Below are positions 15,005-63,432 of a DNA stretch of 64,000 nt, piece by piece (the stretch's first letter is position 1; each line of letters starts with the position of its first letter). Origin of the DNA: an uncultured Flavobacteriaceae bacterium. Its GTDB lineage: Bacteria; Bacteroidota; Bacteroidia; NS11-12g; UBA955. A program made the translations under genes and the position numbers. The notes under the pieces were generated by a model. The model did not search any database. It saw only the letters and a list, made by a program, of their open reading frames with translations, and had not been told where the DNA came from. Where the stretch lies: NCBI GenBank assembly GCA_964626685.1, contig CAZVJY010000001.1, positions 173,881 through 237,880 of the forward strand, in the 5' to 3' direction.

Positions 15005-15020
15005 CCTTTTCGTATAAGTG

Positions 15021-15044
15021 CAAACTTAGTGTAATTATTACACA
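15021..15044. promoter_or_regulatory. Minus-strand -7 element TAAGTTTG (15021-15028) abutting operator AGTGT-aattatt-ACACA (15028-15044)
   Basis: In the divergent intergenic region between the kinase operon and the regulator. Confidence 0.75.
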
Positions 15045-15118
15045 TAGCCAAAGGAACCTTGATGATTATTGATACAAAAAAAACCAAAGTTACTATATTT
15101 GTGAACCCCATTTTTGCT

Positions 15119-15829: not shown

Positions 15830-15838
15830 TACTTCTCA

Positions 15839-15859
15839 ATAGTGTTTGTTTGACACTAT
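15839..15859. promoter_or_regulatory. NrtR-type operator ATAGTGT-ttgtttg-ACACTAT upstream of MFS gene
   Basis: Perfect 7-bp inverted arms with a 7-bp spacer. Confidence 0.8.
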
Positions 15860-15892
15860 GAGCCGAATTCCGTAGATTGCGGCCCCAACCTT

Positions 15893-50586: not shown

Positions 50587-50650
50587 TTATTGTATTTTTA
50601 ACAATAATCTTATTGTTTATTGTACAATATGAATGGTTTTTATACCTTTG
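50587..50650. promoter_or_regulatory. Tandem operators TTATTGT-attttta-ACAATAA (50587-50607) and TTATTGT-ttattgt-ACAATAT (50610-50630), then -7 element TACCTTTG (50643-50650)
   Basis: Two GT-N7-AC palindromes matching the site at 62819. Confidence 0.78.
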
Positions 50651-50673
50651 TTATTAAATCAACTTTAACCGAT

Positions 50674-52341
50674 ATGAAAAAAATCTTTACTATTTTGATG
50701 CTTGGGGCCGTTTTCTCAGGATTGATGGCACAAAAGCAGGTTACATTCAAAGTAGACATGAACAACTACACCGGTGGTTCATTTACTACTGTTTATGTAA
50801 GTGGTTCGTTCAACTCCTGGTCCGGAAACAGCAATGCACTGACGGATACAGACGCTGATGGTGTTTGGGAAGCTACTTTCCCCATCACTGATGATTCCAT
50901 TGAGTACAAATTCACTATGGACAATTGGAGCAAACAGGAGTCTCTCACACCCGGCAGTTCTTGTACCAAGACTACCGGCGGATTTACCAATCGCTTTGTT
51001 AGGCTTACAGGCAACGTTACCCTCAGCAAGGTTTGTTTTGAAAGCTGCTCGGCTTGTACTCCGGTGACCAACAAATCCATCACTTTCAATGTGAATATGA
51101 GACAATACACCGGCACCTACACCAATGTTTACGTTTCGGGCAATTTCAACGGATGGTCTGGTAACAGCAATCAACTTACGGATACAGACGGTGATAAAAT
51201 CTTCACCGGCACATTTGATATTACCCAGGATTCCATTGAATATAAATTCACAGTAGACAACTGGAAAGACGATGAGAAACTGACCGCAGGAAGCACATGC
51301 ACCAAAACCACCGGCAACTTTACCAACCGTTTCCTGAAAGTAACAGGACCAAAGGTACTCGGCAAGGTTTGCTGGGGTAGCTGCAGCGAGTGCACCAATG
51401 ATGTTACCTTTAAGGTTGACATGAACAAATATAAAGGCGCTCCCTTTAACGGTGTATTTGTAAACGGCAGTTTCAACGGATGGTGCGGCAGCTGCAATCC
51501 CATGTCAGACGCGGATAAAGATGGCATCTGGGAAGTAAAACTGCCTTTGCCACAAGATTCTATTGAATATCTTTTCACACTGGACACCTGGAGAGTACAA
51601 GAAAAAATGGCTCAGGGTAGCTCCTGCACCAAAACCGTAGGGCAATTCACCAACCGCTTCCTGAAAATTACAGGCGCCACTGTTCTTGATACTGTATGCT
51701 TTGAATCCTGCCTTAGCTGCGCCGATACCAAACAGAAGGTTAATGTGACCTTCAAGGTTGATATGAGCAAGAACACCGCTACATTCACTACGGTAAACAT
51801 CAATGGTACGTTCAACAACTGGTGCGGCAACTGCAATACTATGACCGATGCCAATAACGACAAGGTTTATGAAATAACCCTTCCTATCAATGCCACAGAC
51901 ACTTTCGAATACCTGTTTACCCTTGATGGCTGGGCTACCAAAGAAATCTTTACCGGAGGTGAAAGCTGCACCAAAACCACAGGCCAGTTTACCAACCGTA
52001 TGGGTGTGGTTACTTCAGACTCCACTATGCCTGCAGTATGCTGGGAAAAGTGTGTAACCTGTGCAACTGCTGGCACTGCTACCATTGCTGCACATGGTGT
52101 GAAAGTATTCCCCAACCCCGGCAACGGATTGTTTAATGTAACTGCTTCATTCAGCAACCTCACTGCAGGAAACATCGAAGTGTATGATGTAGTAGGCCAG
52201 AAGCTTTACAGCAAAGACTTCACAGGAAAAACCATCAACACCGAAATCAACCTTAACAGCGCCAAGCCCGGCATGTATCTGATGGTTATCAATACCGCAG
52301 AAGGCAGCTACCAGGAGCGCATCTTCATCAACAGCAAATAA
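50674..52341 (+). CDS. Non-catalytic T9SS-secreted protein with four tandem Cys-rich Ig/CBM-like repeats
   Basis: Signal peptide MKKIF...LMAQ; four repeats; CTD VFPNPG...YDVVGQ...GMYLM. Confidence 0.85.
   Translation: MKKIFTILMLGAVFSGLMAQKQVTFKVDMNNYTGGSFTTVYVSGSFNSWSGNSNALTDTDADGVWEATFPITDDSIEYKFTMDNWSKQESLTPGSSCTKTTGGFTNRFVRLTGNVTLSKVCFESCSACTPVTNKSITFNVNMRQYTGTYTNVYVSGNFNGWSGNSNQLTDTDGDKIFTGTFDITQDSIEYKFTVDNWKDDEKLTAGSTCTKTTGNFTNRFLKVTGPKVLGKVCWGSCSECTNDVTFKVDMNKYKGAPFNGVFVNGSFNGWCGSCNPMSDADKDGIWEVKLPLPQDSIEYLFTLDTWRVQEKMAQGSSCTKTVGQFTNRFLKITGATVLDTVCFESCLSCADTKQKVNVTFKVDMSKNTATFTTVNINGTFNNWCGNCNTMTDANNDKVYEITLPINATDTFEYLFTLDGWATKEIFTGGESCTKTTGQFTNRMGVVTSDSTMPAVCWEKCVTCATAGTATIAAHGVKVFPNPGNGLFNVTASFSNLTAGNIEVYDVVGQKLYSKDFTGKTINTEINLNSAKPGMYLMVINTAEGSYQERIFINSK
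50740..52062 (+). repeat. Four intragenic repeats of about 106-114 codons
   Basis: Units start at 50740, 51079, 51403 and 51745; each [VI]TF.V[DN]M...G.FN.W...D.D.D...EY.FT.D.W...CTKT.G.FTNR...VC..C..C. Confidence 0.92.
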
Positions 52342-52357
52342 TCATTTGGTTTGATAT

Positions 52358-52390
52358 ACAAAGAGGGAGGCCATGTGCCTCCTTTTTTGT
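52358..52390. terminator. Terminator between convergent genes
   Basis: ggaggc-catgt-gcctcc stem followed by tttttt. Confidence 0.75.
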
Positions 52391-52392
52391 TT

Positions 52393-53238
52393 TTAAGGAA
52401 TATACTCAAAAGAACGTATCACCACTTCTACAGGCTTTCCGTCGGATGGGGGCAAACCACTCAAAAGCCACAAATTCATGCGGGCACGGGTGGTAGCACC
52501 GGGTGCTGGTATGATAATGGGATTCGAAACCCTGCCACCCTCAATTTTGGTCCTTACGGGATTGTTAAGGTTGAAACTCCAGCTTGCCAGCGGACTTCCT
52601 CCCGGGTAAACAGATCCGGTATAGGAGTTCCAAGTAACCTGATCTGCACGCCAGTTAAAGATATGGGTGCTGGGTTGTTTCAGCTTGCTCACCTGCATTA
52701 CAGGCTTAAAAGAACGCTCGCTGTATGCAATTGGATTGTCAAAAATTACCGGCTGCACGGAATACGTAAGGGTAAGGCTGTCATTGGCTCTGAACCATTT
52801 GGAGAACTCAATGTCAACTTCACTGTTTGCCTGTTCCTGAAATGAATTGTCATCCCAGGTAAACAAACCCAGTACCACACGCTCATTGATATTGGCAACA
52901 TCGCTCTCGATGCAGAACACATAGGTTCCGTAACCTGAATTTTCCGTACAGATAACTTCACTGCTTTGCCACCTGCCGTTAATTCTGGCAATGCGCAGAT
53001 GCAAATATCCTTTGCTGTCAACCCAAACCATGCTGTCACTACCATTAAAATAATTGGGACCGGGACCCACTGGGCCCGTGCTGGATTTGATGTTCCAGCC
53101 GTAGCCGGAAAAGACCAAATCGCCTGAATCCCGTATTATCCGGCTCTTGTTATCCGGCGGATCAGATTGCTTACAGGAGTATACAGGCAACAGCAACATT
53201 GCTGCCAAAGCGGGAATGAAATACAATATTCTGGTCAT
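52393..53238 (-). CDS. GH16 family lipoprotein (beta-glucanase)
   Basis: Lipobox VYSC; VDSKGYLHL, GYGTY, catalytic EVDIE, MNLW. Confidence 0.75.
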   Translation of the reverse strand: MTRILYFIPALAAMLLLPVYSCKQSDPPDNKSRIIRDSGDLVFSGYGWNIKSSTGPVGPGPNYFNGSDSMVWVDSKGYLHLRIARINGRWQSSEVICTENSGYGTYVFCIESDVANINERVVLGLFTWDDNSFQEQANSEVDIEFSKWFRANDSLTLTYSVQPVIFDNPIAYSERSFKPVMQVSKLKQPSTHIFNWRADQVTWNSYTGSVYPGGSPLASWSFNLNNPVRTKIEGGRVSNPIIIPAPGATTRARMNLWLLSGLPPSDGKPVEVVIRSFEYIP

Positions 53239-55472
53239 CAGGGTTTGTGGTTTATCGTTACGGTTTGCTGTCCGGCGAAGAAATGAAGGATACCGGATGC
53301 CTTAAATGGTTTCATATCAGCGCCAATGTCTCCCACCTCGGAAAAGGGAACTTTAAGCGTAACAACAGCATCCTGCCCGGGCTTAAGATTGACCTTACTA
53401 AATGCGCAAAGTTTTTTCTGGGAGGGTGTAACCGGGGCATATTCATCGCGGTAATACACCTGCACCACTTCTTTGCCTTCGCGACTTCCTGTATTTCTTA
53501 CAATAACATTAATAACAAATGTATCATTTTGTGACGTTACCTTTAGTTCCCGGTAGTCGTAACGGGTAAAGGAAAGCCCATACCCAAAATCATACAATGG
53601 TCTGTAGCCTTTATCGCCAAAATGAATATCATTGTCTTCTGTACGTTTACGGTCATAATGTACAATATCTCCTGATGAACGCGGGTAGGTAAAAGGCAAG
53701 CGGCCCGAAGGGTTTATTTTACCATACAATAAGTCCACCAGTGGCTTTGCTCCCTCCTGTCCGGGGATATAGGCATGTACCACGGCACGGCTTATTGCAT
53801 CCAGGTCGGTTATGATGCGCGGCCTTCCCAACAGCAGCACCAATACCACAGGCACATTTCTGGCATTCAGCTGGTTCAGTGCAATTCGGTCTGCTGCAGG
53901 AATGGTAATGGCCAAATCATCAATGTTACCAGGGATTTCCGTGGCAGGCGTTTCCCCGAGGCAATACAGAACAACATTCGGTAACTGTTTCGATTTGCGC
54001 GTATTTCGGGCCACAAACTGTGCTGTTACCTCTGAAATATTTTCCTTGCCATAACCGGCTTTCAAAGCCTGTAGGATGGTTAATTTATTTGACTCATTGA
54101 AACTTGTATCCTGACCCAGCCATGTTTGCGACCAGGCCCCGTTCAGGTAATTGAGGCTGTTGGCACCGTTGCCCATTACCCACACCTTTGATTCGGTCTT
54201 CAGCGGCAATATATCTCCCTTATTTTTTAGGAGGGTTATCGATTCGCCTACGGCATCATATGCCACCCGCGCAAAACTGTCTGAGCCGAATAACGGATAA
54301 TCGGTCAGCGATGGCAGGCTTACTTTTCCTTCAAGGCCTAAATCTGCTTTCAGTTTCAATATACGCCGCACAGACATATCCAGACGGCTTTCCGGAATCT
54401 CCCCCGATTTTACCAGGTCCAGCAACAGTTCATTGAACTGAAAATCGTTGGGGGTCATACTCATATCGATACCCGCCATCACGGCCATTTTCACGGCATC
54501 CCTCAGCGTTTCAGCTACTTTGTGTGTGGTATGCAGTTTGTATACATCTTCCCAGTCGGTAACAGCCACCCCTTCAAAGCCCAGCTCTTCTCTAAGCAAG
54601 GTTGTGAGAATGGGATAGCTGGCATGAACCGGCACGCCATTCAACTCACCGGAGTTGATCATCAGGGTTTTAGCCTTCAACCGGATGGCTTCCTGAAATG
54701 TGGGCAGAAAATACGCCCTCAGTTCCCGTTCGCCAATCCAAACAGGGGTTCGGTCTTTGCCACTCAATGGGTAGCTGTAGCCCAGAAAATGCTTCATGCA
54801 GGCTGCCACCTGCCCATTTCCGAAGGTATTGCCCTGATAACCAGTGATACAGGCATTTGTCATCTTTTTGGCCAGACACACATCTTCGCCATAGGTTTCG
54901 AAGAACCGCGACCACAGAGGTTGCCTGCCAATATCCAGCACCGGTGAAAAATTCCATGGAATGCCGGAGGCACGGGTTTCGTATGCAGTTATCCGGGCTG
55001 CAGCCTTCACCAACTCCGGATTCCAGGTAGCAGCCTGCCCGATTTGCTGTGGAAACAGGGTTGATCCGAGTGTATAATTGGCTCCATGAATCGCATCGAT
55101 GCCATACAAAACAGGAATGCCATGTTTAGTGTAAAGGCTATTTGCCTGTTGAATGCTGTCAATCAGTTCCAGCCAGCGCTTGCGGCTGAGGGCATGAAAC
55201 CCGCATCCGCAGTTAAGCACGGATCCTACCTTGTAGCGCTGGAAAGCAAGACGAAGTTTGGCAGTATCCAGGCGGATGGGGTCAGCAACTTCACATGTTT
55301 TGCCCACGGCAAGCACACCCAGGTCTATCTGCGACATTTGGCCTACTTTTTCTTCCAAAGTCATGGACTTCAGGCGGTTTTCCACCGCTGCATCGCGGCT
55401 GTTCTGTGCACTAATTGTATGAGAAAAGGCAAAAACAAGGATTGCCAGAAACATCTTTATGCCTGTATTCAT
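53238..55472 (-). CDS. GH3 beta-glucosidase, periplasmic
   Basis: MTLEEKVGQM, GIDAIHG, RFFETYGED, CMKHF, VTDWED, PSGRLPFT, FGYGLS, Fn3-like EVVQVY. Confidence 0.93.
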   Translation of the reverse strand: MNTGIKMFLAILVFAFSHTISAQNSRDAAVENRLKSMTLEEKVGQMSQIDLGVLAVGKTCEVADPIRLDTAKLRLAFQRYKVGSVLNCGCGFHALSRKRWLELIDSIQQANSLYTKHGIPVLYGIDAIHGANYTLGSTLFPQQIGQAATWNPELVKAAARITAYETRASGIPWNFSPVLDIGRQPLWSRFFETYGEDVCLAKKMTNACITGYQGNTFGNGQVAACMKHFLGYSYPLSGKDRTPVWIGERELRAYFLPTFQEAIRLKAKTLMINSGELNGVPVHASYPILTTLLREELGFEGVAVTDWEDVYKLHTTHKVAETLRDAVKMAVMAGIDMSMTPNDFQFNELLLDLVKSGEIPESRLDMSVRRILKLKADLGLEGKVSLPSLTDYPLFGSDSFARVAYDAVGESITLLKNKGDILPLKTESKVWVMGNGANSLNYLNGAWSQTWLGQDTSFNESNKLTILQALKAGYGKENISEVTAQFVARNTRKSKQLPNVVLYCLGETPATEIPGNIDDLAITIPAADRIALNQLNARNVPVVLVLLLGRPRIITDLDAISRAVVHAYIPGQEGAKPLVDLLYGKINPSGRLPFTYPRSSGDIVHYDRKRTEDNDIHFGDKGYRPLYDFGYGLSFTRYDYRELKVTSQNDTFVINVIVRNTGSREGKEVVQVYYRDEYAPVTPSQKKLCAFSKVNLKPGQDAVVTLKVPFSEVGDIGADMKPFKASGILHFFAGQQTVTINHKP

Positions 55473-55477
55473 ATGGA

Positions 55478-56167
55478 TTATCTGCTTTTTCTTACCAGTT
55501 TAATATTATCGAAATACACATCTCCGTCAGCCTCAAACTGTATGATAAACTGTTTTATCATATCGGGCTGGGCCTGAAATCGGTCAAAAGGAAATTCCGT
55601 GAGTGGAATCAGCGCTGTTGTCCATTGTCCGGGCATAATACGGCTGCCATTAAGGTATTTGGCGGAAAATCCGATAAAACACTGAGCGCCTGTGTAATCT
55701 TCGAGTGCCAGAGCCAACGGCAAGGATTTCAAGGTGTCGGTTTGTGAACGGATCTGTATTTGAATGCAGGCGGAATCCAGTATGCCCGACAAATCCTTGG
55801 GTTGCCAGTTATCCCAGCCAAAGCCCATTCCTATCCATTTGCAGCCACCGGCTATTTTATCCCATTTGGCACGCATACAATAGGAACCGGAAGCAGGCCG
55901 ATTGTCAACCTTTGTTACTGAAACACATGCCGACTCTTTGGATACCCAGATATCAGAGCCCATGCTTTCATCGAAAAGCTCCAGCGCACTGAAACCACCG
56001 ATATCAGCGATAGTTCGCGTTTCAGCATAATCGTACAGCTCCATTTTTTTCATACGAAGAACCCCTTTCGTTATGTGTACAGTATCCAAATTGCGTACAG
56101 CCGTGTCCTGTGCGTGGAGGGCGCTGCACAGCAACATCAGGCTAAGAACACAAGACAATGCTTTCAT
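55478..56167 (-). CDS. Secreted stand-alone carbohydrate-binding-module-like protein (CBM11/CBM30-like jelly roll)
   Basis: SpI signal ALHAQ; WIGMGFGWDNW..KDLS, WTTALIPLTEF, VYFDNIKLV. Confidence 0.6.
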   Translation of the reverse strand: MKALSCVLSLMLLCSALHAQDTAVRNLDTVHITKGVLRMKKMELYDYAETRTIADIGGFSALELFDESMGSDIWVSKESACVSVTKVDNRPASGSYCMRAKWDKIAGGCKWIGMGFGWDNWQPKDLSGILDSACIQIQIRSQTDTLKSLPLALALEDYTGAQCFIGFSAKYLNGSRIMPGQWTTALIPLTEFPFDRFQAQPDMIKQFIIQFEADGDVYFDNIKLVRKSR

Positions 56168-57171
56168 TACAGTTCCAGCGGGGCTTTCTCGGTGAAGATG
56201 AGATAGTCAATCTTGGTGCCGGCCGCACCCAGCGATGGATTGGCCAGATGCAGCATGGAAATGGTAACAATGCTATTCGGGTTGTGGCGGTTATTGCCTT
56301 TGTTGGGCGCCGGCTGTCCATTGCTAAGGTGTATCAAATCGCTGTATTTGAATGATACCATTTTCCAGCCCTGCCAGTTTACAATGATTTCCTTGTCAAA
56401 CTGGTCGTCGGCACTGGCATCGAATACCTTGTTGTTGTTATCATCTTCTTTAAACTGAAATAGTACCCTGCTGGGATTGGGGGTTGCATCGCCATAAATA
56501 AGACAGTTGAAGTACACATCTTCAGGAACCGTGCTCAAAGACAGTGTGGGTGAGCCATAGGCAGACGCTGGAAAATCAATCAGGCCAATGAGCCAGTCCC
56601 AAGAGACCGTTCCGGCCATGTTCAGATAGTTTTTGCCCTGAACTGAAAAGCCATCGGTTTTTACCTTAAAATCCATATTGGCTCCAGATTGAATAAACGT
56701 ATTCCATTTTGCGTTCAGTCCGGTCTCGAAGTCAGCAATAACAAGCCCCTGAGGAACCCGTACCCCGTTAACACCCACATTCAAACTGAAGCTATCGGTA
56801 ACCCCGGCAATTTTGAGCACGGCGCGGCAGGGTTCTGTGCGGAATGCAGGCAAAACGGTGGTAGTACCGTTCCATTCGGCATTTGCGGCGTTAATCTGAC
56901 GGGATTTCCCGGAGATAATTTTTCTCGCTTTGCTCAAATCCCCGTAAATGGTAATGGTCCAGTCGCATTGCTTGGTGAATTCTGCACCAAAAACAATGGT
57001 TTCCCCTTTTGAAAAATCAGCTGCACTTTTGCTTGCCGTGAAGGGTTTTACCATGCCAAACGGACCATTAAGATCTTCCAGGCTAGGGCCTTCAAAGGGC
57101 TTGTTTTCGCGCTTGCATGAAGCCAAAATAAACAACAGTGGCAATATGCGGTATAGTGTTTTCATATTCAT
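56167..57171 (-). CDS. Lipoprotein with Ig-like plus CBM-like domains (candidate surface glycan-binding protein)
   Basis: Lipobox LASC; IADFE, WQGWKMVSFKYSDL, IDYLIF. Confidence 0.6.
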   Translation of the reverse strand: MNMKTLYRILPLLFILASCKRENKPFEGPSLEDLNGPFGMVKPFTASKSAADFSKGETIVFGAEFTKQCDWTITIYGDLSKARKIISGKSRQINAANAEWNGTTTVLPAFRTEPCRAVLKIAGVTDSFSLNVGVNGVRVPQGLVIADFETGLNAKWNTFIQSGANMDFKVKTDGFSVQGKNYLNMAGTVSWDWLIGLIDFPASAYGSPTLSLSTVPEDVYFNCLIYGDATPNPSRVLFQFKEDDNNNKVFDASADDQFDKEIIVNWQGWKMVSFKYSDLIHLSNGQPAPNKGNNRHNPNSIVTISMLHLANPSLGAAGTKIDYLIFTEKAPLEL

Positions 57172-58898
57172 CAGAATGTCATGTTATAAATGGCCTGCAT
57201 CTGTCCGATACTGTAATCCCGGTATGACTGGGCCTTGTTTTGAAATTGCATGCGCTGATACATGAGCGCCAGGTAAGTCTTGCCACCAAAGCGAACACGA
57301 AGTCCGGCTGCGGCCGTGCTGTGTTTTTGATTGGCTGAGAATCCTGCAAAATCGATAACCTCGGTATATTCGTTGCGCACGGCCATCATATCGTTTCCTT
57401 TGCCTTGCAGCACAGTATAGCCACCCAGCAAATCAATGTCCTTCATCACCTCTACTTCCATACCGGCCGACCATTGCAGAGAAGTCAAGTCCAGCTCTTC
57501 ATACGCGCGGGTGCTTTTACGCCGGGTGTTCTGGTCACAGGCAGACAATAGCAACTTCGCTTGTTTTTTTAAACCCAGCAGCTTTCCTGCATCGCAGATT
57601 ATATCCAGGCGGGTCATATCCATCTTTTTCAGCTCGGGTGTTCCCTGCCCTAAAATTTCAGATAAACGCCAGCGTTGCGCATCGATTGTTATAGTATTTT
57701 TTACAATATTATACTTTGCCTTTGCATAAAAACCCTGCCTGTTAAAGGTCGCTATTCCATATGGAAGCACATTGTTTATTAAAGGATTGTAGGCCATCAG
57801 CCTTGTATTGATACCGGTGCGGTAGAGATTGGTGTTGCCAATAAAATCCAACAGATGAAGAGGCCGGTCTATCTGCATTTGGGTATAGCGGTTATACAAT
57901 AAGGGTTGTGCATTGTAATCGATACGCTTGGACTGCGCAGCCATACTCCTGAAATCGGGTCCCACATTGATATAACCCGCTTCGGCCTCCCAGCGTTTGC
58001 TGCCGGGAGCAACTTTTACAAAACCATGAACAAAAAAGTCCTGCAGGTGTGGTGATGCGGTATCATGCACCATGCGGTAGGATGAATTGCCGGCTTCGCC
58101 TCCGAATGTGAACAGCTGTTTGGTGATTGCCTGCTTCCATTCCCAAGACAAGGTTTGCACCGTATTCTGAAACAACAGTGGTTGTGTTGCGGTTTCCTTA
58201 ACATCAAAAATGCGGCTGATATTGTAAGCCAGGGTGGCCTTTTTGTTCCATACCCAGTTGGCGGTTGCCCCTGTGTGCAGGCGTTCGGGCTGGCTGCCGA
58301 AATTGGTGGCATTCAAACGGGTAAGGTATCCATGAAAGTTCCAGTCAGATTTGAGTTTTACGGATTCCAATCCAAAATCTGCCGCCGCTCCCTGTTGCCG
58401 CCAGGTTCCGGGCACGAAAAAGGATTCGTAGTTTACAATATCCCGCTGAAGATCAAATACTGCAGGCTGCTGCATGCACCGGTCCTCATCGTGGTTCCAG
58501 AAAGTAAACGGTGTCTGTTTAAGGTTGATATCACCCAGCTGGTAACGGACTTTATCGGCAATCACGCCTTTTAACCAAAGCTGACGAACATCAAAGGATA
58601 CGCCCGCACCCCAGAAACCGCCAAAACGGTTATTGATGCGAATCATACCCAGTATTTCGGTGTTTTTATTGGGTCGAATATTGAAACCCAAATCTATAAG
58701 GGCATATCCACCGGCGTTTTTGGGAGCAGTGACCTTGTCAGGAACACTGTCCTTCACTTGCAATTCGGAGTTGGCCAAAACCGAACGCGCACCCCCTTTC
58801 ATACTAAACTTGGGGCTGTTTTGTGCAAGCATTACCATAGGCATTGCCGCTGCAAGGAAACCGAAAATTTTAATGCTATTGCGTATGAGTATTTTCAT
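57171..58898 (-). CDS. Uncharacterised predicted outer-membrane beta-barrel protein B
   Basis: SpI signal, amphipathic strands, C-terminal QAIYNMTF beta-signal; no TonB plug motifs recognised. Confidence 0.6.
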   Translation of the reverse strand: MKILIRNSIKIFGFLAAAMPMVMLAQNSPKFSMKGGARSVLANSELQVKDSVPDKVTAPKNAGGYALIDLGFNIRPNKNTEILGMIRINNRFGGFWGAGVSFDVRQLWLKGVIADKVRYQLGDINLKQTPFTFWNHDEDRCMQQPAVFDLQRDIVNYESFFVPGTWRQQGAAADFGLESVKLKSDWNFHGYLTRLNATNFGSQPERLHTGATANWVWNKKATLAYNISRIFDVKETATQPLLFQNTVQTLSWEWKQAITKQLFTFGGEAGNSSYRMVHDTASPHLQDFFVHGFVKVAPGSKRWEAEAGYINVGPDFRSMAAQSKRIDYNAQPLLYNRYTQMQIDRPLHLLDFIGNTNLYRTGINTRLMAYNPLINNVLPYGIATFNRQGFYAKAKYNIVKNTITIDAQRWRLSEILGQGTPELKKMDMTRLDIICDAGKLLGLKKQAKLLLSACDQNTRRKSTRAYEELDLTSLQWSAGMEVEVMKDIDLLGGYTVLQGKGNDMMAVRNEYTEVIDFAGFSANQKHSTAAAGLRVRFGGKTYLALMYQRMQFQNKAQSYRDYSIGQMQAIYNMTF

Positions 58899-60751
58899 CA
58901 AAAGAATATTTTTAATTCCACAGTGGTTTCCCATCCGCGGTATCGGTCTTTACTGAAGCTGCGGTCTCTGTAATACATTTTTCTCTGCCTGATATACAGG
59001 CCTGCACCTTTGCTCATTTCGATATCGAAGCCGGTGGCAATACCATAGCCTTCCTGGTTTTTGGGCCTTCGGCTGATGGCATCGGTACGGGTATCGTAAT
59101 TGGCTATTATTCTCTCTGCGCCGGCATAGTTGCACCATACCAGGTTTTTGGCCAGTTTCAGATAAGACTCCAGCTGGTGATAATACGTGCGGAGATAGGC
59201 TTTTTCCGTAAACACGGTAAAGGGAGAGGCAAAAGACTGAACCGAAGCGTAGGTACCGAGGTAATTTATAAAGAGATCTTTCCCGGCGAGCTGCGTTTTA
59301 TATTTGATTTGAAGTTCAGCGGTATTGAAATATTTATCGTCCAGCGGAACCTTGCGGGAATCTACATTTACCAGATCAACAGATTCAAAAACACCGCGGT
59401 ATACTTTGGTGAGGTTGGCATAAGGCCCCACTCCGGCAGGAAAAGACCAGCGCCAGAATCGCGATAAGGCCAGGTTGTTTACCGGGTGCGAATAGGTTAT
59501 TTGTGTAGCAATACGCTCCAGTTCGCGGGCAATGCTATAACCCGCATTGATGCGAAACCGACCTGCTTTGGTTTCAGAGTTTAGTTCTATCCCAGTGCGA
59601 TTATTCGTCAGTTGGCCTACCGGCACCATAGCGCTGGAAAAAGGCGCCAGCACCAGCTGTGCATCGCTTTGAGCCCCTGTATTATTACCTTCGGCAATGG
59701 CTGAATTCCAGAATACACTGCTGTTGTTGATGACCTTTGGACTGATGCGGAAGTAATGGATTTGAAGGGGTATCCGAAGCACGCGCTGCGGGATGTCCAG
59801 TTTCAGCGAGATCGCTTCACCCCAGCCCTTATTGTATGAATTACTATAATACCGTCCGGCACCGGTTTCACCGTATACTTTCCAGCCATTTTTCTGCCAT
59901 ACAAACTCGGCAGTATGCACGGAAAAGCCGAGGGTACTGCTCAGCAGTGAATCTGAATATGTTTGGTTATTAAACGTATTGAGGCTGATGTATCGGTTAT
60001 CGTCGCCTTTTTTAATTTTTCCGCCCAGGCTGTGATTGGGCAGTGGGGTCATACCACCATTCAGCTGCGTTTTGCCGTACATCAGCACCCCAGAAAAACC
60101 ATGCGGCAGGTTGCTGCCTTCAAGAATCAGCCCCTGAAATGCCTGTCTGCCCCAGCGGGTATCCTGGTTCATGGCGCCGGTCTGATAAAAGGTCTGGTAG
60201 CGATCCATGGCATTGCGGGTCATTGGGTCCCATGGGTTGCGCTCGAATACGGTAAAACGGTTAAATCCAGGGTTGGAAAAGAAAGTAAAGGGTGTTAGGG
60301 AATACCAGTTTATGCCACCTGTTTGTATCTGCAAGGTACCTTTCTCAAAATCATGGGTACCGGTGAGGCTAACGCCAAGGTTAAGCCCTTTTACATTTTC
60401 AGCCATTCCGCCTCCCATCATGGGTGTCCACAGGTAAAAATCTGTGTAAAAACGGGTGTTGGGGGATATACTTCCGCCCAGGTTAAGCAACAGTTGCGGT
60501 ATCTGGCTGTCATCACCCACAAAAATATTTAATGGGGTATTCATCTGTTCGGTATAACCTTCCTGCAGATGGCGCACATTGGTGATAAACCTGTAATAGC
60601 CTGACACCTGGAAGCGTTCAAGGGTAGGTATGGGTGCTTTGGGATGCACACCCGGCGTTTCACTTAGCTTAGCTGTATCCTGTGCAGTGGCAGACATTGC
60701 CACAGCAGCCAGCCAAACAGAGCATACAATATGAATGTATTTCTTCATCAT
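58898..60751 (-). CDS. Uncharacterised predicted outer-membrane beta-barrel protein A
   Basis: SpI signal ATAQ, amphipathic strands, C-terminal TVELKIFF; shares motifs with protein B. Confidence 0.6.
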   Translation of the reverse strand: MMKKYIHIVCSVWLAAVAMSATAQDTAKLSETPGVHPKAPIPTLERFQVSGYYRFITNVRHLQEGYTEQMNTPLNIFVGDDSQIPQLLLNLGGSISPNTRFYTDFYLWTPMMGGGMAENVKGLNLGVSLTGTHDFEKGTLQIQTGGINWYSLTPFTFFSNPGFNRFTVFERNPWDPMTRNAMDRYQTFYQTGAMNQDTRWGRQAFQGLILEGSNLPHGFSGVLMYGKTQLNGGMTPLPNHSLGGKIKKGDDNRYISLNTFNNQTYSDSLLSSTLGFSVHTAEFVWQKNGWKVYGETGAGRYYSNSYNKGWGEAISLKLDIPQRVLRIPLQIHYFRISPKVINNSSVFWNSAIAEGNNTGAQSDAQLVLAPFSSAMVPVGQLTNNRTGIELNSETKAGRFRINAGYSIARELERIATQITYSHPVNNLALSRFWRWSFPAGVGPYANLTKVYRGVFESVDLVNVDSRKVPLDDKYFNTAELQIKYKTQLAGKDLFINYLGTYASVQSFASPFTVFTEKAYLRTYYHQLESYLKLAKNLVWCNYAGAERIIANYDTRTDAISRRPKNQEGYGIATGFDIEMSKGAGLYIRQRKMYYRDRSFSKDRYRGWETTVELKIFF

Positions 60752-62106
60752 GGCTGGTCAAAACTTTGTAAATCGTATCTCTTAAATCTGAGTTTTTTAC
60801 TGCCTTCCGGAGCAGCTGCATCCCTCACCAGAAAAGGCATATTGGCATAGGCAACCTTGTTTTTATAGTGTATAGTTACAAACAAACGGTACGCGCCGGA
60901 CTGGCGGGGTGCTTTGAACTGCAGTTCAAAATCGTTGGCTTTTTTAATAAACCCGCTTATTTCAGATGCCTCATTTTCAAGATCGCCACCGGCTTTTTTA
61001 TCATCGCTTTCTGCGAGCATTTTCCATTCTATTCTGTAACTGCGCGGACTATTGCTTTCCTCCGCTGTGGCCCTCAGCAGGACTGCTTTCACCAGTGCAC
61101 TGTTCAAAGAACCCGCATCAACCGTAATATTATCTGAGGCTACTTTTGAATTGATGAACAGTCCGTTTACTGAGGGGGTGGGGGTTACAGGCCATTTACC
61201 ATTCCACAGCCTGTATAAATTGTCTATTGCCTCGGTTTGTTTGTTTTCTTTTGTAAACAGGCCGTACCATGTGAGGGTATACTCCTGTTTTTGTCCCCAT
61301 AAAAACACATAGGAACCAATACAATGCTGGCTATCCGCCTTAATGTACTTTATATACCGATCCCAGTACACATCGGCTTTTTCGCGGCTAGTTTGCTCGA
61401 TTGCCGCATTCCAGGATGTTACCGGCGATTCCCAGTGTCCATTGGGCCCCCATTCGGTTATCATGTAAGGACCGTTCCAGCCAAACCGTCCTATGTTTTT
61501 GGGTACACCAGCAATATCACCGTAGGTATTTATACCATAAACATCAATATCAGGAGCTTTTTCGAGAATATGCTGTACCTCCATGGAATCCAGTCCTGCC
61601 GTGACGGTACAGGTGGGATGGTTGGGGTCCGTTTCGTGTATATATTTTGCTATAGCCTGAATGCTATGCCACACTTTGGTATTGCTGTAAAACAGATCCA
61701 CCTCATTGCCAATACCCCACATCAACAGGGCGGGATGGTTTTTATAGCGGTCCACCACCGATTTAAAATGCTGTATTTGTTTCTGTACAGCCAGATTATT
61801 ATCGTAGTCAAATCCGTGGCGCTCATGCTGCACCCACATTCCAAGCATCACCATTAATCCTTTGCTATAGGCCTCATCCAATATGCGCTGCGCATCGTCT
61901 ATTCCCCAGGTGCGGATGGTATTGCCGCCACAATCTACGAGCAGGTCAAGCTGAACCGTTCCTCCGGCGCCTTTGATGTAATAGGGCTGTCCGTTCTTTA
62001 GCAATTGCCACTGCCCGTTTTTTTGGACAACCTTAATCATGGCAGGCTGCGCTAACACTGGAAGGTGTGCCGCAATGAAAATTAATATGAATGCAATTAC
62101 TCTCAC
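60748..62106 (-). CDS. Clan GH-A TIM-barrel glycoside hydrolase, GH158-like (endo-beta-1,3-glucanase), often annotated GH2 TIM barrel
   Basis: YYIKGAGG, GGNTIRTW, HPALLMWGIGNE (acid/base), YMITEWGP (nucleophile), C-terminal Ig GAYRLF. Confidence 0.72.
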   Translation of the reverse strand: MRVIAFILIFIAAHLPVLAQPAMIKVVQKNGQWQLLKNGQPYYIKGAGGTVQLDLLVDCGGNTIRTWGIDDAQRILDEAYSKGLMVMLGMWVQHERHGFDYDNNLAVQKQIQHFKSVVDRYKNHPALLMWGIGNEVDLFYSNTKVWHSIQAIAKYIHETDPNHPTCTVTAGLDSMEVQHILEKAPDIDVYGINTYGDIAGVPKNIGRFGWNGPYMITEWGPNGHWESPVTSWNAAIEQTSREKADVYWDRYIKYIKADSQHCIGSYVFLWGQKQEYTLTWYGLFTKENKQTEAIDNLYRLWNGKWPVTPTPSVNGLFINSKVASDNITVDAGSLNSALVKAVLLRATAEESNSPRSYRIEWKMLAESDDKKAGGDLENEASEISGFIKKANDFELQFKAPRQSGAYRLFVTIHYKNKVAYANMPFLVRDAAAPEGSKKLRFKRYDLQSFDQP

Positions 62107-62801
62107 TACAGGATACCCCCTTCAAAGCCCAGCTGCTTGGCTTTTGCAGCGTTGTAACGATAGAGCATGGCAGGTCGGTGTGTAACATTTTTCTGAAGCC
62201 TACCCGTTTCTTCTATAATACCTGATGACAAAATCTTTTTTCTAAAGTTTCTTACATCAAATTCTTCTTCCAGAATACTTTCATGAATAAACTGCAGTTC
62301 CGTCAGGGTAAAATATTTGGGCAACAGTTCAAATACCAGCGGCTGCGTGCGGATTCGGTTTTTCAGCAAACGGCGGGCGTATTCAAGAATATCGCGGTGA
62401 TCGAATGGCAGCTTCGGAATTTCCGTAACCTTGAACCATGCTACATCCTTGGCCCAGGAGGCTGCCTGTGGATGGTAGTTTTCTACCTTTATCAGGGCAA
62501 AATAAGCAATGGTAAAAACCCTGCCAAACGGGTGTCTGTCCACACTGCCGAATGTTTGTATCTGCTCCATGTAAACCTGATCCAGACCAGTGAGCTGTTT
62601 AAGCACCTTTTCGGCGGAGTATTCCAGATCCATTTCGGGGGCAATCAGATCACCGGGCAAAGCCCAAGAACCGGTAAAAGGTTCCGAACCGCGTGAAATG
62701 AGAAGTACTTTCAATCCATCGGCGTCGAATCCAAATACCACATTGTCTACAGAAACCGCAACATTGAAGTATTGCTTGAGTGTTTTCTTGAGATTTTTCA
62801 T
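62106..62801 (-). CDS. NrtR-family NUDIX-wHTH transcriptional regulator (beta-glucan locus)
   Basis: SVDNVVFG, WALPG, TFGSVDRHP, LPFDH, FTLTELQ, DVRNFRKK, HRPAMLYRY. Confidence 0.9.
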   Translation of the reverse strand: MKNLKKTLKQYFNVAVSVDNVVFGFDADGLKVLLISRGSEPFTGSWALPGDLIAPEMDLEYSAEKVLKQLTGLDQVYMEQIQTFGSVDRHPFGRVFTIAYFALIKVENYHPQAASWAKDVAWFKVTEIPKLPFDHRDILEYARRLLKNRIRTQPLVFELLPKYFTLTELQFIHESILEEEFDVRNFRKKILSSGIIEETGRLQKNVTHRPAMLYRYNAAKAKQLGFEGGIL

Positions 62802-62812
62802 TGGGTTTGAAG

Positions 62813-62837
62813 CAAATATATTGTAAAAAGTACAATA
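62813..62837. promoter_or_regulatory. Minus-strand -7 element TATATTTG (62813-62820) overlapped by operator TATTGT-aaaaagt-ACAATA (62819-62837)
   Basis: Palindrome directly upstream of the NrtR-led operon. Confidence 0.78.
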
Positions 62838-63018: not shown

Positions 63019-63432
63019 ATGAAGAAGATTTTTACCCTCGGATTCGCTGCCATGGCCGCTACTGCCATGCTGGTAGCAGGTATTAAGCAAAACGAGACCA
63101 TCAAATGGAACAAAACCACCCACGATTTCGGAACCGTTAAAATGGGTCCTCCTGCTGATGTAACGTTCACTTTTACCAACAACGGCAAAGCGCCTGTGGT
63201 TATCACTGCTGCACAGCCAAGCTGCGGTTGCACTACACCTACCTACACCAAAACGCCAGTAATGCCTGGCAAAACCGGTGAGGTAAAGGCAAGCTACGGT
63301 ACTGAAGGTCGTCCAGGTTTCTTCCAGAAAACGGTAAAAGTAACTTTTGACAACGGCGGTTCAACCGATCTTACCATCACCGGCACTGTATCTACCGAAA
63401 GCCCTGCCGGCAGCGGAAATCAGCTTAAGTAA
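63019..63432 (+). CDS. DUF1573 domain protein
   Basis: HDFG, FTFTN.G..P..I, SCGCT, PGKTG. Confidence 0.88.
   Translation: MKKIFTLGFAAMAATAMLVAGIKQNETIKWNKTTHDFGTVKMGPPADVTFTFTNNGKAPVVITAAQPSCGCTTPTYTKTPVMPGKTGEVKASYGTEGRPGFFQKTVKVTFDNGGSTDLTITGTVSTESPAGSGNQLK

What the first reader, a model, noticed from the sequence alone, without database searches (positions are those of the whole stretch)
50587..62837. Candidate SusC/SusD-independent beta-glucan uptake system built on two unknown outer-membrane barrels
Seen: a tightly coupled eight-gene operon (overlapping or near-abutting stops and starts) encoding NrtR, a clan GH-A enzyme, barrel A, barrel B, a CBM-like lipoprotein, a periplasmic CBM-like protein, GH3 and a GH16 lipoprotein. 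It has no SusC, SusD or TonB-dependent receptor. Known: Bacteroidota PULs are defined by SusC/SusD, and GH158, GH16 and GH3 together degrade beta-1,3-glucans such as laminarin. Inference: the two barrels and the lipoprotein sit where susC, susD and an SGBP would normally be, so they may be an alternative, possibly TonB-independent, oligosaccharide import route.
Basis: partly seen in the sequence, partly recalled or inferred. Interest (0 to 1): 0.88.

Follow-up and report, generated by a model that had tools for sequence, protein, structure and literature searches.

The report
SusC/D-free beta-glucan uptake locus
A freshwater Bacteroidota genome carries a tightly packed gene cluster for eating beta-1,3-glucan that replaces the usual SusC/SusD importer with two large outer-membrane barrels and a lipoprotein, and these turn out to be relatives of the little-understood cellulose-uptake genes of Cytophaga hutchinsonii.

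Summary
Eight translationally coupled genes on the minus strand (52393-62801) encode an NrtR-type regulator, GH158, two Pfam-less outer-membrane proteins (barA 617 aa, barB 575 aa), a lipoprotein, a small CBM30-like protein, GH3 and a distant GH16-like lipoprotein, with no SusC/D or TonB-dependent receptor among them. AlphaFold models show two full, plug-less barrels of roughly 22-24 strands, not halves of one receptor. The cluster is conserved: barB follows barA in 67 of 67 related loci with enough flank, and the lipoprotein follows in 61 of 61.

The barrels are not wholly unknown. barA, barB and the lipoprotein have full-length homologues in a Cytophaga-type five-gene cluster. That cluster matches the published chu_1276-chu_1280 "atypical PUL" for cellulose. 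The tie to those locus tags is inferred, not verified.

So this is a beta-1,3-glucan version of a known but mechanistically unsolved system, far more widespread than reported. A model supports binding of the lipoprotein to barB's outer loops (0.65 versus 0.00 in controls). A TonB-box-like motif on the CBM30-like protein leaves TonB independence open. Transport itself is inferred, not shown.

Novelty: new variant of a known kind. Interest 0.66.

The parts
62106..62801 (-). NrtR-family (Nudix + winged-helix) transcriptional regulator, first gene of the operon
   Evidence: Pfam NrtR_WHD scores 85.8 bits (cut-off 27) and NUDIX 30.1 bits. The NCBIfam NtrR equivalog scores 156 bits, below its 400-bit cut-off, so only family-level assignment is justified. 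A 41%-identical paralogue lies at window 15059-15829, beside the starch locus. The regulator is present in 30 of 80 related loci.
60748..62106 (-). GH158 beta-1,3-glucanase with a type I signal peptide (predicted periplasmic)
   Evidence: PDB 9oro, GH158(Pro), matches at E 8.8e-97 over residues 20-427; 6pal matches at E 5.9e-67. GH158(Pro) is reported as a processive enzyme that releases laminaribiose from laminarin (PMC13195107 section 6). There is no lipobox and no T9SS domain. The gene sits directly upstream of barA in 67 of 69 loci with enough flank.
58898..60751 (-). barA: 617-aa outer-membrane beta-barrel, about 22-24 strands, no plug domain
   Evidence: It has a signal peptide and a C-terminal Phe. 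The AF2 model has pLDDT 75.6 and pTM 0.75, with strands from residue 45 to 616. The best structural matches are TonB-receptor barrels without their plugs: SusC BT1762 residues 211-1016, Z 14.2, rmsd 4.3, 407 aligned. The hit list is flat. No Pfam family matches. BLASTP to a Cytophaga hutchinsonii ATCC 33406 protein, P0397, gives E 5e-59.
57171..58898 (-). barB: 575-aa outer-membrane beta-barrel, about 22 strands, with a 40-residue N-terminal extension and no plug domain
   Evidence: The AF2 model has pLDDT 71.8 and pTM 0.67. VIA-align's best match is maltoporin (Z 16.3, rmsd 4.7, 293 aligned), then the SusC barrel and ScrY (Z 15.1), again in a flat list. It is not detectably related to barA (hhalign 2.5%). 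It follows barA in 67 of 67 loci with enough flank. BLASTP to the second gene of Cytophaga-like contig L144 gives E 9e-64.
56167..57171 (-). Lipoprotein (Cys19), two-domain, predicted partner of barB
   Evidence: The lipobox Cys19 is invariant in 35 sequences. There is no Pfam or PDB sequence match. The complex model with barB scores 0.65, against 0.00 for the best of 3 controls; the contacts use lipoprotein residues 21-35, 68 and 89. BLASTP to the third gene of L144 gives E 2e-21 over the full length. It is present in 61 of 61 loci with enough flank.
55478..56167 (-). Small secreted CBM30-like protein with an N-terminal TonB-box-like motif (NLDTVHITKG)
   Evidence: The window copy gives only Pfam SGBP_B_XBD at E 7e-4, below cut-off, and a profile match to CBM30 structures 2c24/1wmx at E 0.049. 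Orthologues pass the Pfam CBM30 cut-off: 28.1 bits in L079 and 56.9 bits in L140 (genome G103). Some orthologues add CBM9. The N-terminal motif and its two alternative forms are shown.
53238..55472 (-). GH3 beta-glucosidase with a type I signal peptide (predicted periplasmic)
   Evidence: Pfam Glyco_hydro_3 matches at E 1.5e-66, together with GH3_C and Fn3-like. The best NCBIfam model is exo-beta-1,3/1,6-glucosidase at 385 bits, below its 1330-bit cut-off. The gene is present in 45 of 51 loci with 7 kb or more downstream.
52393..53238 (-). Distant GH16-like lipoprotein (Cys22), last gene of the operon
   Evidence: A family profile hits lichenases 1mac/1byh at E 4e-4, aligning EVDIEF with EIDIEF. 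E140, D142 and E144 are invariant in 32 sequences. Pfam GH16 does not match. It is present in 49 of 51 loci with enough flank. The two loci without it are L079 and L081; L079 carries a canonical GH16 with a T9SS domain instead. A terminator-like hairpin lies at 52382-52366.
50620..52341 (+). Convergent gene: four CBM48-like modules plus a T9SS C-terminal sorting domain. Likely a cell-surface glycan binder associated with the locus.
   Evidence: Pfam gives CBM_48 in four stretches plus Por_Secre_tail. Relatives lie in 38 of 80 related loci and beside the locus in distant genome G087.

Best explanation
This is a polysaccharide utilisation locus for beta-1,3-glucan (laminarin or chrysolaminarin type) that does not use SusC/SusD.

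Its outer-membrane core is two dissimilar large plug-less beta-barrels (barA, barB), a lipoprotein and a small CBM30-like protein. The core is homologous or positionally equivalent to CHU_1276, CHU_1277, CHU_1278 and CHU_1279 of the Cytophaga hutchinsonii cellulose 'atypical PUL'. That equivalence is inferred from a C. hutchinsonii homologue and from synteny in an 86%-identical contig.

Proposed working:
1. The GH16-like surface lipoprotein nicks the glucan. A T9SS-anchored CBM48 protein may help hold it.
2. The lipoprotein sits on barB's extracellular loops.
3. Glucan chains or oligosaccharides pass the outer membrane through barA and/or barB.
4. In the periplasm, the GH158 cuts them to laminaribiose. 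Its closest characterised relative is processive.
5. GH3 makes glucose.
6. A GluP- or SGLT-type permease takes glucose up. It is unlinked in this genome and adjacent in others.
7. The NrtR-type regulator controls the operon.

Shown here: gene content, barrel fold without plug, conserved synteny, homology to the Cytophaga-type cluster, and a supported model of barB with the lipoprotein.

Inferred: the passage through the barrels, the cell side of each protein, the substrate, and the energy source.
For: Enzymes:
- GH158 matches at E 8.8e-97 to GH158(Pro). That enzyme is active on laminarin and releases laminaribiose.
- GH3 is clear by Pfam.
- The GH16-like protein has an invariant ExDxE motif.

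Barrels:
- AF2 models cover residues 45-616 (barA) and 66-573 (barB) with strands and show no plug.
- The best fold matches are receptor barrels minus plug, and sugar porins.

Linkage in related loci (unless stated):
- barB follows barA in 67 of 67 loci.
- The lipoprotein is present in 61 of 61.
- The CBM30-like gene is found in 54 of 59 by ORF clustering. The other 5 are seen by tblastn.
- GH158 is present in 67 of 69, the GH16-like gene in 49 of 51, and GH3 in 45 of 51.

Inner-membrane step:
- A GluP permease lies beside 17 of 80 loci.
- A sodium:solute symporter sits inside the G103 operon, next to a hybrid two-component regulator.

Carbohydrate link independent of neighbours:
- Three distant barA relatives carry an N-terminal CBM_4_9.

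SusC/D:
- SusC/D-like ORFs occur in 2 of 80 loci.
- The genome's only other SusC/D pair has no CAZymes nearby.
- No match to three SusD families was found in 2 of 5 genomes with the locus.

Complex:
- The barB-lipoprotein model scores 0.65, against 0.00 for the best of 3 controls.
- That mark was reached by 58 of 80 solved complexes and by 2 of 110 mismatched pairs.
- The runs agree in at least 92% of contacts, and the partner's pLDDT is at least 83.
- The contacts fall on invariant residues of both chains. By my strand-parity count they lie on barB's extracellular side.

Homology to the Cytophaga type:
- barA against C. hutchinsonii P0397 gives E 5e-59.
- Contig L144 is 86% identical to P0397 and has the order barrel, barrel, lipoprotein, 374-aa protein, GH9.
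- barB gives E 9e-64 and the lipoprotein E 2e-21 against their L144 counterparts.

Published genetics, as read in PMC12016534 (sections 3 and 11) and in passages of PMC5553014:
- chu_1276, chu_1277, chu_1279 and chu_1280 are needed for, or strongly affect, cellulose use.
Against: - No tool here measures transport. A fold says nothing about what passes through.
- Both fold-match lists are flat, so no specific channel family is indicated.
- An open barrel of 22-24 strands would be leaky. How the lumen is closed is unknown, and the long conserved loops are modelled with low confidence.
- The C. hutchinsonii literature also reports lowered cell-associated beta-glucosidase activity in chu_1276 and chu_1277 mutants (PMC5553014 discussion). 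That fits a scaffold role as well as a channel role.
- That P0397 is CHU_1276 by locus tag could not be checked.
- The fourth gene is only positionally equivalent to CHU_1279 (hhalign 1.3%).
- The substrate rests on family assignment. GH158(Pro) also cuts mixed-linkage glucan, and the GH16-like protein is nearest to lichenases.
- The complex tool's calibration holds only roughly with my own alignments.
Confidence: 0.6

Rival explanations
1. The barrels are assembly or anchoring platforms rather than channels. They hold or export the surface lipoproteins and enzymes (GH16-like protein, lipoprotein, CBM proteins), and sugars cross the outer membrane elsewhere, through general porins.
For: The complex model shows barB gripping the lipid-proximal N-terminal peptide of the lipoprotein, residues 21-35. 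That could equally reflect tethering or translocation. In C. hutchinsonii, loss of chu_1276 or chu_1277 lowers cell-associated beta-glucosidase activity. For CHU_1279, physical presence matters more than cellulose binding (PMC5553014 passages; PMC12016534 section 11). The genome has other porin-like barrels, BBP2 and DUF6029.
Against: Two large barrels would be costly for anchoring alone. Distant relatives fuse a carbohydrate-binding module directly to barA. The periplasmic enzymes GH158 and GH3 need oligosaccharides delivered across the outer membrane, and no other transporter is conserved in the locus. Reference titles listed in PMC12016534 tie CHU_1276 to glucose uptake and CHU_1277 to cellooligosaccharide use; I saw the titles only.
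Confidence: 0.17
2. The system is TonB-dependent after all, as a split transporter. The small CBM30-like protein supplies a TonB box and acts as a separate hatch at the periplasmic mouth of a barrel.
For: 20 of 56 orthologues, plus the window copy, have a signal peptide followed by (M/I/L)-D-T-V-x-(V/I)-x-(G/S)-(K/N). This count includes my manual corrections: row L066 was dropped and row L062 added. The strict pattern occurs in 17 of 56 of these proteins, against 10 of 816 other ORFs of the same loci. The window motif NLDTVHITKG resembles the pre-plug segments of this genome's own receptors, SMDAVHIQALKG and IDTLLIFDG.
Against: About 27 orthologues replace the motif with a lipobox cysteine, as do the fourth-gene proteins of the Cytophaga-type loci. 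The protein is a CBM30-like beta-sandwich, not a Plug domain. A short motif is weak evidence. No binding to TonB or to a barrel was tested.
Confidence: 0.13
3. Oligosaccharides enter through a distant SusC/D pair or another TonB-dependent receptor, and the barrels are accessory.
For: The genome has two SusC/D pairs and several other receptors. One receptor lies 2.9 kb from the operon, at 46900-49539.
Against: One SusC/D pair belongs to a starch locus, and the other has no CAZymes nearby. The nearby receptor is syntenic in only 3 of 80 loci. In 2 of 5 genomes with the locus, no match to three SusD families was found, though completeness is unknown and PF12741 was not searched. In C. hutchinsonii the SusC/D homologues are reported not to be needed for cellulose use (PMC12016534 section 3).
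Confidence: 0.06
4. The locus exports or remodels a cell-made beta-glucan, with the barrels as secretion porins.
For: The language-model search placed both barrels nearest to DUF6029, at 0.96. One paper links DUF6029 speculatively to polysaccharide secretion (PMC9603273 passages).
Against: Profile comparison does not confirm the DUF6029 link: 0.1% and 18.9%. No glycosyltransferase, Wza/OPX or flippase gene recurs in the 872 ORFs of 80 loci. All conserved enzymes are hydrolases, and sugar permeases are linked.
Confidence: 0.03

Closest known systems
Cytophaga hutchinsonii chu_1276-chu_1280 'atypical PUL' for cellulose (PMC12016534)
   Same: The gene order is the same: two outer-membrane barrels, a two-domain lipoprotein, a small CBM-like protein, then a periplasmic glycanase. 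There is no SusC/D. barA, barB and the lipoprotein are full-length homologues of the first three genes of a contig 86% identical to C. hutchinsonii. The paper also reports that predicted CHU_1276 is a barrel resembling TonB-dependent transporters.
   Different: The enzymes here are GH158, GH3 and a GH16-like protein (beta-1,3-glucan, soluble) rather than GH9 (cellulose). The regulator is NrtR-type; in C. hutchinsonii an ECF sigma factor is reported. The fourth gene is not detectably homologous. Identities are 26-29%, and the two types form separate clades. The paper reports the cluster in only two other cellulolytic species. Here, relatives were found in 314 species genomes.
Canonical SusC/SusD polysaccharide utilisation loci, including the Bacteroides beta-1,3-glucan PUL with GH158, GH16 and GH3 (PMC7157763, search listing only)
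   Same: The enzyme set and logic match: surface cleavage, outer-membrane import, periplasmic breakdown, dedicated regulator, surface glycan-binding proteins. A lipoprotein is predicted to sit on the barrel's outer face.
   Different: There is no SusC, SusD, Plug domain or SusD fold. There are two unrelated barrels instead of one. GH158 here has a plain signal peptide; that the Bacteroides enzyme is a surface enzyme is recalled, not checked.
TonB-dependent transporters
   Same: Barrel size is similar. The best structural matches of barA are receptor barrels aligned from just after their plugs.
   Different: There is no plug domain and no recognisable TonB box in either barrel. A TonB-box-like motif sits on a separate small protein, and only in part of the family.
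Sugar-specific porins (LamB, ScrY, chitoporin)
   Same: Both are plug-less outer-membrane barrels encoded with enzymes for one glycan. Maltoporin and ScrY are among barB's top fold matches. barA has long conserved loops rich in aromatic residues.
   Different: The barrels here are much larger (575-617 aa against about 420 aa, and more strands). There is no sequence relation. They are paired with a second barrel and a lipoprotein.

Membership tests
Cytophaga-type atypical PUL (chu_1276-chu_1280) | Two adjacent outer-membrane barrel genes homologous to the first two genes of the cluster | tested here: met
   barA against C. hutchinsonii ATCC 33406 protein P0397 gives E 5e-59. barB against the second gene of contig L144 gives E 9e-64. 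L144's first gene is 86% identical to P0397.
Cytophaga-type atypical PUL (chu_1276-chu_1280) | The C. hutchinsonii homologue is the gene named CHU_1276 | not testable with these tools
   The record carries another locus tag. The link is inferred from L144's five-gene order and from the 374-aa fourth gene against the published 375 aa.
Cytophaga-type atypical PUL (chu_1276-chu_1280) | Third gene: a two-domain beta-sandwich protein (CHU_1278-like) | tested here: met
   The window lipoprotein against L144's third gene gives E 2e-21 at 26% identity over the full length. The fold itself was not modelled alone.
Cytophaga-type atypical PUL (chu_1276-chu_1280) | Fourth gene homologous to the cellulose-binding CHU_1279 | tested here: not met
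   hhalign of the family profile against L145's fourth gene gives 1.3%, and phmmer gives no hit. Only the position and a similar lipoprotein N-terminus in part of the family are shared.
Cytophaga-type atypical PUL (chu_1276-chu_1280) | GH9 endoglucanase and cellulose as substrate | tested here: not met
   The enzymes here are GH158, GH3 and a GH16-like protein. GH9 is found only in the other clade's loci.
Canonical PUL | Adjacent susC/susD pair | tested here: not met
   None of the eight proteins has a Plug, TonB_dep_Rec or SusD domain. SusC/D-like ORFs occur in 2 of 80 related loci.
TonB-dependent transporter | N-terminal plug domain inside a 22-strand barrel | tested here: not met
   There is no Pfam Plug at E up to 0.1. 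The modelled strands begin at residue 45 (barA) and 66 (barB).
TonB-dependent transporter | TonB box | tested here: inconclusive
   None was seen in the barrels. A TonB-box-like motif lies on the separate CBM30-like protein in 20 of 56 orthologues plus the window copy (count includes my manual corrections).
GH158 | Sequence membership with characterised GH158 enzymes | tested here: met
   9oro matches at E 8.8e-97 and 6pal at E 5.9e-67, covering residues 20-428.
GH16 | Beta-jelly-roll with the catalytic ExDxE or ExDxxE motif | tested here: inconclusive
   The profile hits lichenases at E 4e-4 with an aligned, invariant EVDIEF. Pfam GH16 does not match. No structure was modelled.
CBM30 | Match to the CBM30 model above its cut-off | tested here: inconclusive
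   The window copy gives only a profile match at E 0.049 to CBM30 structures. Orthologues pass the cut-off: 28.1 bits in L079 and 56.9 bits in L140/G103, against a cut-off of 27.
DUF6029 | Match to PF19494 | tested here: not met
   There is no Pfam match. hhalign against an alignment of 27 DUF6029 proteins gives 0.1% for barA and 18.9% for barB. Only the language-model score of 0.96 points that way.
NrtR family regulators | Nudix domain plus NrtR winged-helix domain | tested here: met
   NrtR_WHD scores 85.8 bits and NUDIX 30.1 bits, both above cut-off. The equivalog model is below its cut-off, so the ligand is open.

The most novel reading that the evidence does not exclude
Bacteroidota have a second, modular outer-membrane glycan importer beside SusC/D. 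It is a two-barrel plus lipoprotein core that evolution has combined with different enzyme sets: GH158, GH16 and GH3 for laminarin; GH9 for cellulose; and variants with CBM4 fused to the barrel.

In this reading whole glucan chains are threaded through a barrel. They are pulled inward without TonB, by a carbohydrate-binding module held at the periplasmic mouth and by a processive periplasmic GH158. The module is held there in one of three ways: by a lipid anchor, by a peptide anchor, or by fusion to the barrel.

If so, the soluble laminarin system would be the tractable model for the long-unsolved question of how Cytophaga takes up cellulose.
Probability: 0.3. Interest if true: 0.88.

Novelty: new variant of a known kind. 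Interest (0 to 1): 0.66.

Why it matters
SusC/D is treated as the defining feature of Bacteroidota glycan uptake, and automated PUL prediction relies on it. Loci of this kind are therefore invisible to such tools.

The only described relative is the C. hutchinsonii cellulose cluster. As far as I read, it is reported in three cellulolytic species, and its mechanism is unknown.

This work adds three points:
- The same outer-membrane core serves a soluble, abundant algal glucan.
- It occurs in at least 314 species genomes, and the 80 best loci come from MAGs, mostly labelled Bacteroidota and many from freshwater.
- Some of those genomes show few or no SusD genes.

This matters for carbon-cycle annotation of lake bacteria. 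It also gives a soluble-substrate system in which barrel function, the lipoprotein cap and the question of TonB dependence can be tested directly.

Tried and rejected
- **Halves of one TonB receptor:** rejected. Each protein has its own signal peptide, a full barrel model and a C-terminal Phe.
- **barA and barB as paralogues:** not detectable (hhalign 2.5%). One shared short motif (P-x-G-x-x-T-x-N-R-x-G) was noted by eye only.
- **DUF6029 membership:** suggested by the protein atlas but not confirmed.
- **Specific structural relative:** none emerged. Foldseek best TM was 0.38-0.41, and the VIA-align lists were flat.
- **Lipoprotein and CBM-like protein as paralogues:** no.
- **CBM_4_9 of the fused barrels related to either accessory protein:** no.
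- **The 813-aa GH158 of genome G344 carrying the CBM30-like module:** no.
- **Genomic context of the CBM4-fused barrels:** not obtained. The first metagenome scan found nothing. The second returned other relatives, whose tblastn matches began at query residue 134 or later, beyond most of the fused module.
- **Operator search:** the pattern was mis-spaced by me and found nothing. The short palindrome TTGTA-N5-TACAA before the TATATTTG box is too short to weigh.
- **Promoter and terminator scans:** at chance level overall.
- **Tree:** the careful search did not finish. Only the quick tree is reported, and G103, G344, L147 and P0337 sit on long branches.
- **Literature:** searches found no paper linking CHU_1276/1277-type proteins to GH158 or laminarin. 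Supplements were closed and may hold cluster tables that I could not see.
- **Rows dropped or corrected:**
  - L011 was left out of alignment A5 because of an in-frame stop.
  - In one search, one row (L066) was misclassified as TonB-box-like and one truncated row (L062) carries the motif. I corrected both by eye.
  - In one search, only every fifth of the 80 barA ORFs was used.

Full report
**1. What is there**

The minus strand between 52393 and 62801 carries eight open reading frames. Their stops and starts share one base at five junctions and four bases at one junction. One junction has a 5-nt gap.

In order, the genes are:
- an NrtR-type regulator, with Pfam NrtR_WHD and NUDIX;
- a GH158, matching PDB 9oro 'GH158(Pro)' at E 8.8e-97 and 6pal at E 5.9e-67;
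- barA, 617 aa;
- barB, 575 aa. The shorter start is the one used by an identical public gene call, P0121;
- a lipoprotein of 334 aa;
- a 229-aa secreted protein;
- a GH3;
- a 281-aa lipoprotein.

barA and barB have signal peptides and end in Phe. Neither has a Pfam or NCBIfam family or a PDB sequence relative at E up to 10.

The finding's start coordinate also covers a convergent plus-strand gene (50620-52341). That gene has four CBM48-like modules and a T9SS sorting domain.

A terminator-like hairpin follows the last gene. That scan as a whole is at chance level.

**2. The accessory proteins**

*The 'GH16' label.* It is only partly right.
- Pfam GH16 does not match.
- A profile of 32 family members hits Bacillus and Paenibacillus lichenases at E 4e-4.
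- That alignment pairs the invariant EVDIEF with their catalytic EIDIEF.

*The 229-aa protein.*
- The window copy gives only sub-threshold hints: SGBP_B_XBD at E 7e-4 and CBM30 structures at E 0.049.
- Orthologues pass the Pfam CBM30 cut-off, and some add a CBM9 domain.

*The 334-aa lipoprotein.* It has an invariant Cys19 and no recognisable family.

**3. The barrels**

AlphaFold2 was run with alignments of 36 and 37 sequences.
- barA: pLDDT 75.6, pTM 0.75, strands from residue 45 to 616.
- barB: pLDDT 71.8, pTM 0.67, strands from residue 66 to 573.
- By my count from the secondary-structure strings, barA has about 24 strands and barB 21-22. I could not see coordinates, so I give '22-24'.
- Neither has room for a TonB-receptor plug, and Pfam finds none.

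Fold searches gave no specific relative.
- Foldseek found only generic barrel matches, with TM at most 0.41.
- VIA-align ranked the barrel part of SusC BT1762 first for barA (Z 14.2, rmsd 4.3, 407 aligned). Other receptor barrels, aligned from just after their plugs, followed.
- For barB it ranked maltoporin first (Z 16.3, rmsd 4.7, 293 aligned), then SusC and ScrY.
- Both lists are flat, so they show fold class and size only.

Other points:
- The two barrels are not detectably related to each other.
- Both carry long, highly conserved, aromatic-rich non-strand segments that are modelled with low confidence. Whether these close the lumen is unknown.

**4. Conservation**

A scan of one genome per species found 314 species encoding a barA relative. 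The best 80 loci are from MAGs, most of them labelled Bacteroidota or a lineage within it, and many from freshwater.

Counting only loci with enough flanking sequence:

| Gene | Present | Note |
|---|---|---|
| barB after barA | 67 of 67 | |
| Lipoprotein | 61 of 61 | |
| CBM30-like gene | 54 of 59 | By ORF clustering; the other five have tblastn hits |
| GH158, directly upstream | 67 of 69 | |
| GH16-like gene | 49 of 51 | |
| GH3 | 45 of 51 | |

The two loci without the GH16-like gene are L079 and L081. L079 has a canonical GH16 with a T9SS domain instead.

Further recurrent neighbours among the 80 loci:
- CBM48/T9SS proteins in 38;
- the NrtR regulator in 30;
- a GluP-type glucose permease in 17.

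In the window's own genome the GluP orthologue is unlinked.

Three distant genomes keep the module.
- G103 has a hybrid two-component regulator, a sodium:solute symporter, barA, barB, the lipoprotein, the CBM30-like protein, GH3, a canonical GH16 and GH158 in one block.
- No glycosyltransferase or export gene recurs.

**5. SusC/D**

- The genome (2.32 Mb, 99.4% complete) has two SusD matches. One lies in a starch locus inside the window. The other has no CAZymes nearby.
- Among 872 ORFs of the 80 loci, SusC/D-like ORFs occur in 2 loci. Other receptor-like ORFs occur in 4 loci, three of which are orthologues of the window's neighbouring receptor.
- I checked five genomes that carry the locus against three SusD families. 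Two gave no match and the others had one or two genes. Completeness is not given, and PF12741 was not searched.

**6. Evidence for carbohydrate handling and for a complex**

A profile search of 1.84 billion representatives found a small family: 311 proteins at E up to 0.001. Three distant members carry an N-terminal CBM_4_9 fused to the barrel.

A complex model was made of barB (26-575) with the lipoprotein (19-334), using alignments built from the same loci.
- It scored 0.65, against 0.00 for the best of three controls.
- That mark was reached by 58 of 80 solved complexes and by 2 of 110 mismatched pairs.
- The runs agree in at least 92% of contacts, and the partner's pLDDT is at least 83.
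- The tool warns that its calibration holds only roughly for user alignments.
- The contacts join the conserved peptide just after the lipid cysteine (residues 21-35, including invariant G28 and nearly invariant P29) to barB residues 287, 313-314, 415-421, 464-467 and 506-517.
- By strand parity counted from the C-terminus, all of these barB residues lie on the extracellular side. This fits a surface lipoprotein seated on the barrel.

**7. The TonB question**

The CBM30-like protein comes in two forms.
- In 20 of 56 orthologues, plus the window copy, a type I signal peptide is followed by (M/I/L)DTVx(V/I)x(G/S)(K/N). This count includes my two manual corrections.
- In about 27 orthologues, a lipobox cysteine is followed by an SFVQVQ-like strand.
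- The strict motif occurs in 17 of 56 of these proteins, against 10 of 816 other ORFs.

The window's NLDTVHITKG resembles the pre-plug segments of this genome's own receptors, SMDAVHIQALKG and IDTLLIFDG.

This is a lead, not a demonstration. It does mean that 'TonB-independent' cannot be assumed.

There is an alternative reading. The peptide, the lipid anchor and the fused CBM_4_9 may be three ways to hold a carbohydrate-binding module at the barrel.

**8. Comparison with what is known**

Divergent barA relatives from metagenome contigs keep the barA-barB-lipoprotein trio. They follow it with an unrelated protein of about 375 aa. In L141 the next gene is a GH9 by Pfam, and its homologues follow in L144, L145 and L148.

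A search with one of these relatives returned a protein named from Cytophaga hutchinsonii ATCC 33406 (P0397, 743 aa) and one from Sporocytophaga.
- The window's barA matches P0397 at E 5e-59, with the same C-terminal ETTVELKIFF.
- Contig L144, whose barA is 86% identical to P0397, has the order barrel 756, barrel 613, lipoprotein 377, 374 aa, GH9.
- The window's barB and lipoprotein match its second and third genes at E 9e-64 and 2e-21.

PMC12016534 describes chu_1276-chu_1280 as an 'atypical PUL' without SusC/D. I read its abstract, sections 3, 5, 10 and 11, and some passages. It reports:
- two outer-membrane proteins, CHU_1276 and CHU_1277. CHU_1276 is predicted there to be a barrel resembling TonB-dependent transporters;
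- two beta-sandwich proteins, CHU_1278 and CHU_1279. CHU_1279 is 375 aa, lies in the outer membrane, binds cellulose and is essential;
- a GH9, CHU_1280;
- the cluster's presence in two other cellulolytic species.

That P0397 is CHU_1276 is an inference from this matching anatomy. I could not check the locus tag.

A quick tree of 35 barA sequences splits the GH158-context clade from the Cytophaga-type and CBM4-fused clade with full support. The careful search did not finish, and several rows sit on long branches.

**9. Mechanism**

The closest characterised relative of the GH158 is reported to be processive. It is reported to release laminaribiose from laminarin and to cut some mixed-linkage glucans (PMC13195107 section 6).

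With plain signal peptides, GH158 and GH3 should act in the periplasm. This parallels the C. hutchinsonii endoglucanases that a reference title in PMC12016534 calls periplasmic; I saw only the title.

The most likely scheme is:
1. surface capture and nicking of the glucan;
2. passage through barA and/or barB under a lipoprotein cap;
3. periplasmic conversion to glucose;
4. uptake by GluP or SGLT.

Steps 1, 2 and 4 are inferred.

**10. Verdict**

- The system is a new variant (different substrate, much wider distribution) of a kind already proposed in print for cellulose.
- I found no paper that links these proteins to GH158 or laminarin.

Noticed in passing
window 1531-17224: This is a canonical starch/maltose locus. 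It holds SusC (1531-4572), SusD (4572-5957), a DUF4961 protein, two GH13 enzymes, GH65, beta-phosphoglucomutase, a sugar-kinase-like gene, a second NrtR-type regulator (15059-15829) and a GPH-family symporter. Both glycan loci of this small genome therefore use Nudix-type regulators.
   Followed up: partly
window 46900-50441 and G000:C11 (L084 1079-4332): A TonB-dependent receptor is paired with a DUF4249 lipoprotein twice in the genome. The window copy lies 2.9 kb from the operon. It is syntenic only in the closest relatives: 3 of 80 loci.
   Followed up: partly
G000:C11:54019-55677 (L084 10011-11681): A true DUF6029 barrel (336 bits) stands alone beside a BBP2 porin gene, with no CAZymes nearby. 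DUF6029 was found in 39 of 151 sampled Bacteroidota genomes.
   Followed up: partly
P0276, P0292, P0294 (and probably P0337): In these distant barA relatives, a CBM_4_9 module is fused to the N-terminus of the barrel, after a signal peptide. Their genomic context could not be obtained.
   Followed up: partly
L011 8470-9108: The CBM30-like gene of this related MAG has an in-frame stop. It may be a pseudogene or an assembly error.
   Followed up: no
L137 (G344:C1:1264000-1283900): A high-GC member of the phylum keeps barA, barB and the lipoprotein. Here they sit next to an 813-aa GH158 with an unexplained N-terminal half of about 400 aa and an 892-aa T9SS protein. No CBM30-like gene was found.
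   Followed up: partly
L149-L151 (metagenome contigs): A third context for the barrel trio: it is followed by a 447-454-aa relative of the CHU_1279-like protein, a 200-aa paralogue, an aldehyde dehydrogenase in L149 (its 454-aa counterparts in L150 and L151 were not scanned) and, in L151, a GH3. An unknown 692-aa protein lies upstream. The substrate is unknown.
   Followed up: no
window 63019-63432 and L116 3525-7196: A DUF1573 gene lies divergently upstream of the operon; relatives are present in 6 of 80 loci. A 1223-aa SprB-repeat T9SS protein lies further on.
   Followed up: no
window 62813-62835, minus strand: A TATATTTG box lies 12 nt before the regulator's ATG. It is preceded by a short palindrome, TTGTA-N5-TACAA. 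The palindrome is too short to judge, and my pattern search for it was mis-spaced.
   Followed up: no
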